A stretch of DNA of 64,000 nt, from the NCBI RefSeq assembly GCF_055900595.2, contig NZ_CM148325.1; one strand, written 5' to 3'. Under the pieces are notes generated by a model. The model did not search any database and was not told the origin of the DNA. It saw nothing but the letters and a program-made list of their open reading frames with translations. Below, piece by piece: positions 3,199-4,957 of this stretch. Position numbers and translations under genes: made by a program. Each line of letters begins with the position of its first letter. Positions within the stretch are counted from its first letter, which is position 1.

Positions 3199-3214
3199 TA
3201 TTCTAACATCGACT
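3199..3214. promoter_or_regulatory. DeoR operator-like palindrome (candidate O2 at deoP2)
   Basis: tgttagtattctaaca, a near-perfect TGTTAGAA/TTCTAACA palindrome about 50 bp upstream of the deoC start. Confidence 0.6.
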
Positions 3215-3406
3215 CCGCAACACACTTCGATATACATCACAATTAAGGAAATCTACTTACAAAATTGCATTACTGTAATGCGATCTGGTTCAAATAATTC
3301 ACTTTCAAATGAATGCGTCAGTGGTGGCAAACGCATCAGGATCAAAGTGAACATCACGAAACTTCTTACAATGGCGCATCACCTTCGGCATAAAAAGGAA
3401 CAGAAG

Positions 3407-4957
3407 ATGCCCACTTCTCATGAAAATGCACTGCAACAACGTTGCCAGCAAATTGTCACCAGCCCGGTACTTAGCCCGGAGCAGAAACGCCATTTTCTGG
3501 CGCTGGAAGCAGAAAACAATCTGCCTTACCCGGCGTTGCCTGCCGAAGCCCGCCGCGCGCTGGATGAAGGTGTAATCTGCGATATGTTTGAAGGTCATGC
3601 GCCGTATAAACCGCGCTATGTCTTACCCGATTACGCCCGTTTTTTGGCCAACGGTTCCGAATGGCTGGAGCTGGAAGGCGCAAAAGATCTTGATGACGCA
3701 CTCTCTCTGCTGACCATTCTTTACCACCACGTTCCTTCGGTCACATCGATGCCGGTCTACCTGGGGCAACTGGATGCGTTGTTGCAACCGTATGTTAGAA
3801 TTCTAACACAAGACGAGATCGATATTCGAATAAAACGTTTCTGGCGTTATCTCGACAGAACCCTGCCAGACGCCTTTATGCACGCCAATATTGGCCCATC
3901 TGATTCACCCATTACCCGTGCGATTTTACGCGCAGACGCAGAGCTGAAGCAGGTTTCACCGAACCTGACTTTTATCTACGATCCTGAAATCACCCCTGAT
4001 GACCTGCTGCTGGAAGTGGCGAAAAACATCTGTGAATGTAGCAAACCGCACATCGCCAACGGTCCCGTGCATGATAAAATTTTCACAAAAGGGGGCTACG
4101 GGATTGTGAGCTGTTACAACTCACTGCCGTTAGCGGGTGGTGGCAGCACGCTGGTACGCCTCAACCTGAAAGCCATTGCCGAGCGCAGTGAATCGCTGGA
4201 TGACTTCTTTACGCGCACTCTACCGCACTACTGCCAACAGCAGATCGCCATCATCGATGCGCGGTGTGAATTCCTCTATCAACAATCACACTTCTTTGAG
4301 AATAGCTTCCTGGTGAAAGAAGGGCTGATTAACCCTGAACGTTTTGTGCCAATGTTTGGCATGTACGGACTGGCAGAAGCGGTTAACTTGCTGTGTGAAA
4401 AAGAAGGAATTGCCGCGCGTTACGGTAAAGAAGCCGCCGCAAATGAAGTGGGTTATCGCATTAGCGCGCAACTGGCGGAGTTTGTCGCCAATACCCCCGT
4501 GAAATATGGCTGGCAAAAACGCGCCATGTTACACGCACAGTCGGGGATAAGTTCCGATATCGGCACCACGCCGGGCGCGCGTTTGCCGTATGGCGATGAG
4601 CCAGATCCGATCACCCATCTGCAAACTGTCGCCCCGCATCATGCTTATTATTATTCCGGCATCAGCGACATTTTGACGCTCGACGAAACCATCAAACGTA
4701 ATCCGCAGGCGCTGGTACAGCTTTGCCTCGGTGCCTTTAAAGCCGGAATGCGTGAATTTACCGCCAATGTCAGCGGTAACGATCTGGTTCGCGTTACCGG
4801 TTATATGGTGCGTTTGTCGGATCTGGAAAAATATCGTGCCGAAGGCTCACGTACCAACACCACCTGGCTGGGAGAAGAAGCCGCACGCAACACTCGTATT
4901 CTGGAACGCCAGCCGCGCGTTATAAGCCATGAACAGCAGATGCGCTTTAGTCAGTAA
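3407..4957 (+). CDS. yjjI: glycyl-radical-enzyme-like protein YjjI
   Basis: ORF 3278..4957 trimmed to ATG 3407 ([15 protein letters not shown]), preceded by aaaaaggaa RBS; gives 516 aa as recalled for YjjI. Confidence 0.85.
3792..3807. promoter_or_regulatory. DeoR operator palindrome (candidate O1 at deoP1)
   Basis: Perfect 16-bp palindrome tgttagaattctaaca, about 593 bp from the 3199 site (recalled O1-O2 spacing about 600 bp); lies inside yjjI coding sequence. Confidence 0.6.

What the first reader, a model, noticed from the sequence alone, without database searches (positions are those of the whole stretch)
3199..3807. DeoR operator palindromes, one lying inside the yjjI coding sequence
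TGTTAGAATTCTAACA (perfect, 3792..3807) and tgttagtattctaaca (3199..3214) are spaced about 593 bp apart, consistent with the long-range DeoR looping between deoP1 and deoP2 that I recall. The upstream operator, and so presumably deoP1, falls within the divergently oriented yjjI reading frame, so deo regulation and yjjI coding sequence are physically interleaved.
Basis: partly seen in the sequence, partly recalled or inferred. Interest (0 to 1): 0.3.

Follow-up and report, generated by a model that had tools for sequence, protein, structure and literature searches.

The report
Known DeoR operators inside yjjI gene
These are the textbook DeoR repressor binding sites that loop DNA to shut off the E. 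coli deo (nucleoside breakdown) operon, and two of the three do lie inside the neighbouring yjjI gene, so the finding is real but already known.

Summary
Both palindromes exist, but the coordinates need correcting. The perfect TGTTAGAATTCTAACA is at 3793..3808. The one-mismatch copy is at 3193..3208, not 3199..3214. The spacing is therefore 600 bp, not 593 (599 bp in K-12).

They match the published deoO1 and deoO2 sequences exactly. deoC is on the minus strand (2369..3148) and yjjI on the plus strand (3407..4957). O2 is intergenic, 45 bp upstream of deoC. O1, and with it deoP1, lies 387 nt inside yjjI.

It is exactly 279 bp from O1 and also inside yjjI.

I aligned 81 yjjI genes from Escherichia to Proteus. 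After normalising for amino acid, O1 and OE are the two strongest islands of synonymous-site conservation in the gene, and they hold rare codons (AGA, CTA). In four Proteus species yjjI is not next to deoC. There both sites are absent and the same codons vary freely.

The system is the classical DeoR looping system, which makes the finding already known and of low interest. The open point is whether DeoR, or antisense transcription from deoP1, also controls the FNR-activated yjjI-yjjW operon enclosed by the loop.

The parts
2369..3148 (-). deoC CDS (deoxyribose-phosphate aldolase, 259 aa), first gene of deoCABD
   Evidence: ORF list. RefSeq annotation of the 99% identical locus L082 maps to these coordinates.
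3193..3208 (-). deoO2: DeoR operator. It reads TGTTAGAATACTAACA on the deoC strand and overlaps the extended -10 (TGTTAGAAT) of deoP2. Inferred +1 is about 3193.
   Evidence: Identical to the published O2 sequence (PMC5326754). Conserved with 1-2 changes in most deoC-adjacent loci, weaker (4-5) in the most distant genera. With +1 at 3193 the two CRP sites fall at -40.5 and -93.5, the positions I recall from the literature.
3226..3241 (-). CRP-1 site of deoP2 (TGTGATGTATATCGAA on the deoC strand)
   Evidence: Sequence. The same 16-mer was reported under a CRP ChIP-seq peak at yjjI/deoC in ETEC (PMC4287617). Conserved in alignment A2.
3242..3278 (-). CytR target region between the two CRP sites (conserved ...GTAATGCAA..TTGTA...)
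   Evidence: Conserved block in alignment A2. deoP2 CytR/CRP architecture as described in PMC3454398. Binding is inferred.
3279..3294 (-). CRP-2 site of deoP2 (TTTGAACCAGATCGCA on the deoC strand)
   Evidence: Sequence. Conserved TTTGA..TC.CA in A2. Centre is 53 bp from CRP-1.
3332..3345 (+). Candidate FNR site for the yjjI promoter. ATCAA at 3341..3345 forms an invariant GGATCAA (3339..3345); the other half is weak.
   Evidence: TTGATCC (deoC strand) is invariant in 15 genera. yjjI is listed as directly FNR-activated with a ChIP peak that falls upstream of the gene by my coordinate conversion (PMC3688515). The site assignment is inferred.
3367..3372 (+). Candidate yjjI -10 hexamer TACAAT. It would place the FNR site centre (3338.5) at -41.5 of a +1 near 3380.
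   Evidence: Sequence. Largely conserved in A2. Inferred, not demonstrated.
3407..4957 (+). yjjI CDS (516 aa, YjjI-family glycyl-radical enzyme), divergent from deoC
   Evidence: Coding-type substitution periodicity holds along the whole length, including codons 1-128.
3793..3808 (-). deoO1: perfect 16-bp DeoR operator TGTTAGAATTCTAACA. It contains the extended -10 (TGTTAGAAT; hexamer 3800..3805) of deoP1, with inferred +1 about 3793. It occupies yjjI codons 129-134 (tAT GTT AGA ATT CTA ACA).
   Evidence: Published sequence (PMC5326754). Present at the orthologous position in 76 of 80 related loci. Lowest amino-acid-normalised synonymous entropy in the gene (z -2.59). Rare AGA and CTA codons are fixed. 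Absent in Proteus, where deoC is not adjacent.
3821..3846 (-). Conserved block upstream of deoP1, about -28 to -53 (GAT ATT CGA ATA AAA CGT TTC TGG CG). Probably the -35 region or UP element of P1; another factor's site is not excluded.
   Evidence: Longest run of conserved nucleotides in yjjI (3830..3846). Rare CGA and ATA codons are conserved. After amino-acid normalisation it is only moderately unusual (z -1.45), so part of it is protein constraint.
4072..4087 (-). deoOE: third, weaker DeoR operator (TGTGAAAATTTTATCA on the deoC strand, 12/16 identical to O1). It lies within yjjI codons 222-227.
   Evidence: Centre is 279 bp from the O1 centre. Literature: a third site about 300 bp upstream of O1 (PMC8053113). 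Identical in 64 of 76 loci and always 279 bp from O1. Second-lowest synonymous entropy in the gene (z -2.26). Absent in Proteus.
4929..5792 (+). yjjW (glycyl-radical enzyme activase). Its start overlaps the end of yjjI by 29 nt.
   Evidence: The overlap explains the third synonymous-constraint island, codons 507-516.

Best explanation
The palindromes are the three operators of the E. coli deoCABD operon. O2 (3193..3208) covers the -10 of promoter deoP2 just upstream of deoC. O1 (3793..3808) covers the -10 of deoP1, 600 bp further upstream. OE (4072..4087) lies another 279 bp upstream. The multimeric DeoR repressor binds two or three of them at once and loops out the DNA between them. This represses both promoters cooperatively until deoxyribose-5-phosphate releases it. 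deoP2 is additionally controlled by two CRP sites with CytR between them. Because the divergent gene yjjI starts only 258 bp from deoC, O1, deoP1 and OE are embedded in the yjjI coding sequence. The codons there serve both as YjjI codons and as DNA signals, and selection for the signals has frozen them. What is shown here is the sequences, their positions, their identity to the published operators, and their nucleotide-level conservation, which depends on deoC being adjacent. DeoR binding, looping and the transcription start points are taken from the literature or inferred.
For: - Exact match to the published operator sequences (PMC5326754).
- Spacing is 599 bp in K-12 and 600 bp here, against the published 599 bp.
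- A third site about 300 bp upstream is described in PMC8053113. The candidate is at 279 bp and is one of only three 4-mismatch sites in 64 kb.
- Gene layout is confirmed by RefSeq annotations.
- In 76 of 80 yjjI loci from other species an O1-like site (at most 2 mismatches) sits at the orthologous position, with the OE-like sequence exactly 279 bp away.
- Among 81 aligned yjjI genes, O1 and OE rank first and second for lowest amino-acid-normalised synonymous entropy. Mean third-position entropy is 0.28 and 0.33 bits, against a gene mean of 1.19.
- Rare codons are fixed: AGA in 55 of 56 Arg at codon 131 and CTA in 75 of 81 Leu at codon 133. These make up 4.7% and 4.1% of Arg and Leu codons in the window's long ORFs.
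- Natural control: four Proteus species have yjjI without an adjacent deoC. They lack both sites, and the Val/Leu/Thr codons vary among them.
- With +1 of P2 placed 7 nt after TAGAAT, the CRP sites fall at -40.5 and -93.5 (coordinates). The CRP-1 16-mer matches a CRP ChIP-seq site.
Against: No binding or transcription data were generated here. The primary papers with the OE sequence and the mapped P1/P2 start sites were not readable, and no held paper contains any of the three operator 16-mers as an unbroken string. The OE assignment therefore rests on position, similarity and conservation. The simple promoter scan did not report P1 or P2. That is expected, because both are extended -10 promoters without a good -35.
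Confidence: 0.95

Rival explanations
1. As well as repressing deo, the intragenic operators and deoP1 regulate yjjI-yjjW. DeoR bound at O1 and OE could block RNA polymerase elongating through yjjI. The O1-O2 loop encloses the whole yjjI promoter. Once derepressed, deoP1 fires head-on into the yjjI promoter across about 414 bp of convergent overlap, which would give transcriptional interference or antisense RNA.
For: The geometry follows directly from the coordinates. O2 is at 3193, the inferred yjjI promoter at about 3332-3380, the yjjI ATG at 3407, O1/P1 at 3793 and OE at 4072. yjjI is a genuinely expressed, FNR-activated gene (PMC3688515). The divergent deoC-yjjI arrangement with the embedded operators is conserved from Escherichia to Hafnia and Edwardsiella.
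Against: No expression data link DeoR or deoxynucleosides to yjjI. None of the top-ranked papers holding two of the terms yjjI, deoC and DeoR mentions yjjI. Conservation of the sites is fully explained by their role in deo repression. deoP1 is described as the weaker promoter (from memory).
Confidence: 0.2
2. The conserved nucleotides at 3793..3808 and 4072..4087 reflect constraints of yjjI itself (protein sequence, codon bias, or an mRNA structure or translation signal). The resemblance to DeoR operators would then be incidental at these positions.
For: Amino acids are well conserved at these codons, with mean conservation 0.92-0.93. Some neighbouring conserved codons (AAA, CGT, TTC) are simply preferred codons.
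Against: The frozen codons include the rarest ones, AGA and CTA. After normalising for amino acid, these are still the two most constrained windows in the gene. In Proteus yjjI, which has no adjacent deoC, the same conserved Val, Leu and Thr residues use varying codons and residues 131-132 differ. The sequences equal the experimentally defined operators.
Confidence: 0.02
3. The palindromes are chance occurrences, for example around an EcoRI site GAATTC, and have no function.
For: None beyond the short length of the motif.
Against: Shuffles give 0.21 expected matches at 3 or fewer mismatches in 64 kb, against 2 observed, one of them perfect and one with a single mismatch. In the 6-kb K-12 locus the expectation is 0.01. 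The sites are conserved across dozens of genera.
Confidence: 0.01

Closest known systems
E. coli K-12 deoCABD regulatory region (deoO1, deoO2, deoOE; DeoR looping; Valentin-Hansen 1986, Dandanell 1987, Amouyal 1989)
   Same: The operator sequences are identical. The order is the same: OE, then O1/P1, then O2/P2, then deoC. OE-O1 is 279 bp. The CRP/CytR module at P2 is the same, and so is the embedding in yjjI (b4380).
   Different: O1-O2 is 600 bp rather than 599 bp, because of a 1-bp insertion in the T-rich stretch just upstream of the yjjI start codon. The region is about 2% divergent in sequence overall.
lac O2 inside lacZ and gal OI inside galE (auxiliary looping operators within coding sequence; established knowledge)
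   Same: An auxiliary or second operator for a looping repressor lies inside a protein-coding sequence, so the codons carry a second, DNA-level function.
   Different: In lac and gal the intragenic operator lies in the first gene of the regulated operon, downstream of the promoter. Here O1 and OE, and a whole promoter (P1), lie in a divergently transcribed neighbouring gene with its own FNR-dependent regulation. P1 transcription is therefore antisense to that gene.
DeoR operators at nupG and tsx (other members of the DeoR regulon; PMC5326754)
   Same: Same repressor and the same palindromic recognition sequence.
   Different: They lie elsewhere in the genome and are not in this window. No other site with 3 or fewer mismatches occurs in the 64 kb.

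Membership tests
deo operon DeoR operators (O1/O2/OE) | 16-bp palindrome TGTTAGAA-TTCTAACA (O1) and TGTTAGAA-TACTAACA (O2) | tested here: met
   Exact matches at 3793..3808 and, on the minus strand, at 3193..3208. Sequences as quoted in PMC5326754.
deo operon DeoR operators (O1/O2/OE) | O1 and O2 about 599 bp apart, both upstream of deoC and in the deoC orientation | tested here: met
   600 bp here and 599 bp in K-12. The literature gives 599 bp or about 600 bp. Other species show 567-675 bp, most often 600-603.
deo operon DeoR operators (O1/O2/OE) | Each main operator overlaps the -10 region of a promoter (P1, P2) | tested here: inconclusive
   Both operators contain TGTTAGAAT, an extended -10-like motif, on the deoC strand. 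CRP sites fall at -40.5 and -93.5 if +1 of P2 is 3193. No TSS data are available here, and the consensus scan reported neither promoter.
deo operon DeoR operators (O1/O2/OE) | Third, weaker operator OE about 300 bp upstream of O1 | tested here: met
   4072..4087 is 12/16 identical to O1 and 279 bp away. Its position is invariant in 76 loci and it is strongly constrained at synonymous sites. Its exact sequence could not be compared with the primary paper.
deo operon DeoR operators (O1/O2/OE) | Bound by DeoR, with loop formation, and released by deoxyribose-5-phosphate | not testable with these tools
   Known for the identical K-12 sequences (PMC8053113, PMC5326754). Not measured for this strain.
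deo operon DeoR operators (O1/O2/OE) | A deoR gene present in the same genome | not tested
   deoR lies far from this locus in K-12 (about 0.88 Mb, per the deletion coordinates in PMC8053113) and was not looked for in the window.
YjjI-family glycyl-radical enzyme gene (host CDS) | A full-length ORF orthologous to b4380, followed by the overlapping activase gene yjjW | tested here: met
   516-aa ORF at 3407..4957. It is 98-99% identical to annotated YjjI. yjjW is at 4929..5792. Coding periodicity holds over the whole gene.

The most novel reading that the evidence does not exclude
DeoR and deoP1 also act on the neighbouring gene. The loop, roadblocks at O1 and OE, and convergent P1 transcription would couple expression of the FNR-activated, functionally uncharacterised glycyl-radical enzyme operon yjjI-yjjW to deoxynucleoside availability. 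Selection for the operator would also have driven an amino-acid change in YjjI: Gly131 (GGA) in Hafnia, Edwardsiella and Proteus becomes Arg (AGA) in Enterobacteriaceae, which completes the perfect palindrome.
Probability: 0.2. Interest if true: 0.4.

Novelty: already known. Interest (0 to 1): 0.15.

Why it matters
The deo operators are a founding example of long-range repression by DNA looping in bacteria, so identifying them here adds nothing new. The comparison across 81 species does give a clean, quantified example of a regulatory signal overriding codon choice inside a neighbouring gene: rare AGA and CTA codons stay fixed for as long as deoC remains adjacent, and are released in Proteus. 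It probably also shaped the protein sequence itself. The comparison also shows that the yjjI promoter sits inside the DeoR loop and faces deoP1. That arrangement gives a simple, testable hypothesis about how the uncharacterised YjjI/YjjW glycyl-radical system is regulated.

Tried and rejected
- **Primary papers not available.** I tried to read Valentin-Hansen 1986, Dandanell and Hammer 1985, Mortensen 1989 and Sogaard-Andersen 1990 by PMC id; none is held.
- **No literature match for the operator sequences.** A full-text search for the operator 16-mers, including OE, found nothing. OE could therefore not be checked letter by letter.
- **Promoter scan uninformative.** The sigma-70 consensus scan of 3100..4200 reported neither P1 nor P2. 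It requires a -35 hexamer, so it says little about these extended -10 promoters.
- **ModE lead not resolved.** I recalled Tao et al. 2005 on ModE control of deo and considered a ModE site for the conserved block 3821..3846. The held papers only cite that title, so the block stays unassigned. I also noted the AAACGTTT core typical of LacI-family sites and the 10-bp palindrome TATTCGAATA (3823..3832). After amino-acid normalisation the block is only moderately constrained, so I did not pursue these.
- **Downstream yjjI start rejected.** I considered that yjjI might really start downstream of O1. Codons 1-128 show the same 3-periodic substitution pattern as the rest of the gene, which rules this out.
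- **CRP motif inside yjjI rejected as a conserved site.** The CRP motif proposed inside yjjI in ETEC (CGTACCGTCGGTCACA) differs at 3 of 16 positions in this window (CGTTCCTTCGGTCACA, 3730..3745).

Full report
**Observation**

Reading the sequence and a pattern search show that both palindromes exist, but the coordinates need correcting.
- The spacing is therefore 600 bp, not about 593.

These are the only matches with 3 or fewer mismatches in the 64-kb window. Dinucleotide-preserving shuffles give 0.21 on average. Allowing exactly 4 mismatches adds only three sites in the window.

**Context**

The window is E. coli-like. Bases 2300..5000 match 5,423 of 5,426 complete E. coli genomes over at least 80% of their length, at 95-99% identity. 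The annotated features are deoC, yjjI and yjjW. Mapping the RefSeq annotation of the best hit onto the window and listing ORFs gives:

| Gene | Coordinates | Strand | Note |
|---|---|---|---|
| deoC | 2369..3148 | minus | 259 aa |
| yjjI | 3407..4957 | plus | 516 aa |
| yjjW | 4929..5792 | plus | overlaps the end of yjjI |

The one-mismatch palindrome is therefore intergenic, 45 bp upstream of the deoC start codon. The perfect palindrome is 387 nt inside yjjI. The third site is about 666 nt inside yjjI.

**Identity with the known system**

- In K-12 MG1655 the same two sequences occur 599 bp apart. The perfect one lies inside b4380 (yjjI) and the other lies between yjjI and deoC.
- The extra base in the window is a 1-bp insertion just upstream of the yjjI start codon.
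- PMC3334521 states that deoP1 and deoP2 are 599 bp apart and are locked by DeoR-mediated looping.
- PMC8053113 describes single operators O1 and O2 about 600 bp apart, one at each of the two tandem promoters. It describes a third site, OE, about 300 bp further upstream, and loops between all sites seen by electron microscopy.
- PMC5326754 quotes the DeoR palindromes as TGTTAGAA-TACTAACA and TGTTAGAA-TTCTAACA. These are exactly the window's O2, read on the deoC strand, and O1.
- The OE candidate reads TGTGAAAATTTTATCA on the deoC strand and is 12/16 identical to O1. Its centre is 279 bp from the O1 centre. This is the distance I recall from Valentin-Hansen et al. 1986, but that paper could not be opened.

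**Promoter anatomy (partly inferred)**

On the deoC strand both O1 and O2 begin with TGTTAGAAT, an extended -10-like motif. Placing +1 seven nucleotides after the hexamer gives about 3193 for P2 and about 3793 for P1.

With +1 of P2 at 3193:
- The CRP-like site TGTGATGTATATCGAA (3226..3241) is centred at -40.5.
- The CRP-like site TTTGAACCAGATCGCA (3279..3294) is centred at -93.5.

These are the published positions as I recall them. The first 16-mer is the motif reported under a CRP ChIP-seq peak at yjjI/deoC in ETEC. The conserved ATGCAA-containing stretch between the two sites fits the CytR target described in PMC3454398.

**yjjI promoter (inferred)**

An alignment of the intergenic region from 15 genera shows an invariant TTGATCC on the deoC strand (window 3339..3345). 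A largely conserved TACAAT lies at 3367..3372. Together they fit a class II FNR promoter with +1 near 3380. yjjI is listed as directly FNR-activated, and by my coordinate conversion the ChIP peak lies just upstream of the gene (PMC3688515).

The O1-O2 loop therefore contains the whole yjjI promoter and the first 386 nt of the gene. P1 and the yjjI promoter face each other about 414 bp apart.

**Independent test by comparative genomics**

A search with YjjI returned 80 loci from other species, at 71-99% amino-acid identity.
- An O1-like site with at most 2 mismatches sits at the orthologous position in 76 of them. It is perfect in most, with 1-2 changes in some Citrobacter and Enterobacter and in Hafnia and Edwardsiella.
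- In all 76 the OE-like sequence is exactly 279 bp from O1, and it is identical to the window's in 64.
- O1-O2 spacing varies from 567 to 675 bp, most often 600-603. This fits a loop long enough not to need strict helical phasing.

I built a codon alignment of the 81 yjjI genes. Mean entropy is 0.35, 0.23 and 1.19 bits at codon positions 1, 2 and 3, so synonymous sites are close to saturated. The 6-codon windows with the lowest third-position entropy are:
- the yjjI/yjjW overlap (codons 507-516);
- O1 (codons 129-134, 0.28 bits);
- a block just upstream of P1 (codons 139-146);
- OE (codons 222-227, 0.33 bits).

After normalising each codon against other codons for the same amino acid, O1 ranks first in the gene (mean z -2.59) and OE second (-2.26).

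The frozen codons include rare ones. AGA accounts for 55 of 56 Arg at codon 131, and CTA for 75 of 81 Leu at codon 133. In the window's long ORFs AGA is 4.7% of Arg codons and CTA is 4.1% of Leu codons.

**Natural control**

The four Proteus loci have yjjI, but no deoC within the 2.5-kb upstream flank. They lack both sites. The conserved Val, Leu and Thr at codons 130, 133 and 134 use varying codons among the four species, and residues 131-132 are Gly followed by Glu, Asn or Ser instead of Arg-Ile.

Hafnia and Edwardsiella carry GTT GGA ATT (Gly131), which gives a one- or two-mismatch operator. Most Enterobacteriaceae carry AGA (Arg) and the perfect palindrome. This suggests that improving the operator cost a Gly-to-Arg replacement in YjjI. 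That step is inference.

The N-terminal 128 codons show normal coding periodicity. O1 is therefore truly intragenic and is not an artefact of a mis-annotated start.

**Verdict**

These are deoO2, deoO1 and deoOE of the classical DeoR looping system, and O1, P1 and OE are embedded in the divergent yjjI coding sequence. The system itself is already known.

Two things are added here. One is a quantitative demonstration that the operators dominate synonymous-site constraint in yjjI, and do so only where deoC is adjacent. The other is the explicit geometry: the FNR-dependent yjjI promoter lies inside the DeoR loop and is convergent with deoP1. Whether that geometry makes yjjI-yjjW respond to DeoR or to P1 activity is untested. 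I give it about 0.2.

**Limits**

No binding or transcript data were produced. The primary papers were not readable, and none of the operator 16-mers was found as an unbroken string in any held text. The conserved block 3821..3846 upstream of P1 is only partly explained: after normalisation its constraint is moderate, and its assignment as a -35 region or UP element is a guess.

Noticed in passing
window 3821..3846 (yjjI codons 139-147): This contains the longest run of conserved nucleotides in yjjI across 77 species (3830..3846, ATAAAACGTTTCTGGCG), with rare CGA and ATA codons kept. It lies about -28 to -53 of deoP1. It contains an AAACGTTT core and an adjacent 10-bp palindrome TATTCGAATA. 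It may be an UP element or -35 region, or another factor's site. Part of the conservation is protein constraint.
   Followed up: partly
window 3332..3380: GGATCAA at 3339..3345 (TTGATCC on the deoC strand) is invariant in 15 genera, and a conserved TACAAT lies 3367..3372. Together they look like a class II FNR promoter for yjjI. This fits the published FNR ChIP peak and FNR activation of yjjI (PMC3688515).
   Followed up: partly
window about 3777 (inside yjjI, near O1): A published CRP ChIP-seq study in ETEC lists a second peak inside yjjI, 544 bp from the deoP2 CRP peak, which puts it close to O1. The motif proposed there is not conserved in this window (3730..3745 differs at 3 of 16 positions). 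The peak might reflect cross-linking through the DeoR loop rather than a real CRP site.
   Followed up: no
window 4925..4957: The last 10 codons of yjjI overlap the start of yjjW (ATG at 4929) by 29 nt. They form the third island of synonymous-site conservation, as expected for overlapping, translationally coupled genes.
   Followed up: partly
window 4292..4309 (yjjI codons 296-301): A smaller unexplained island of low synonymous variation (TTCTTTGAGAATAGCTTC, mean z about -1.6).
   Followed up: no
window 5831..6008 and 13695..13777: Rfam naRNA4 (CssrE) matches, which I take to be REP/BIME-type repeats. One set lies in the yjjW-yjjV intergenic region; the other lies just upstream of the tRNA-Leu genes.
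   Followed up: no
window 13917..14238: Three tandem tRNA-Leu(CAG) genes on the plus strand, which I take to be the leuV-leuP-leuQ cluster.
   Followed up: no
window 25000..64000: This part is strain-variable. Only 64-66 of 5,426 complete E. coli genomes cover at least 80% of it. It carries a type I restriction-modification system (which I take to be the hsd 'immigration control' region), tsr, btsT, a pentapeptide-repeat protein gene and the inverse autotransporter iatD.
   Followed up: no
window about 3391..3400 versus K-12: There is a 1-bp insertion and two substitutions in the T-rich stretch between the yjjI ribosome-binding region and the start codon, relative to MG1655. This makes O1-O2 600 bp instead of 599 bp.
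   Followed up: yes
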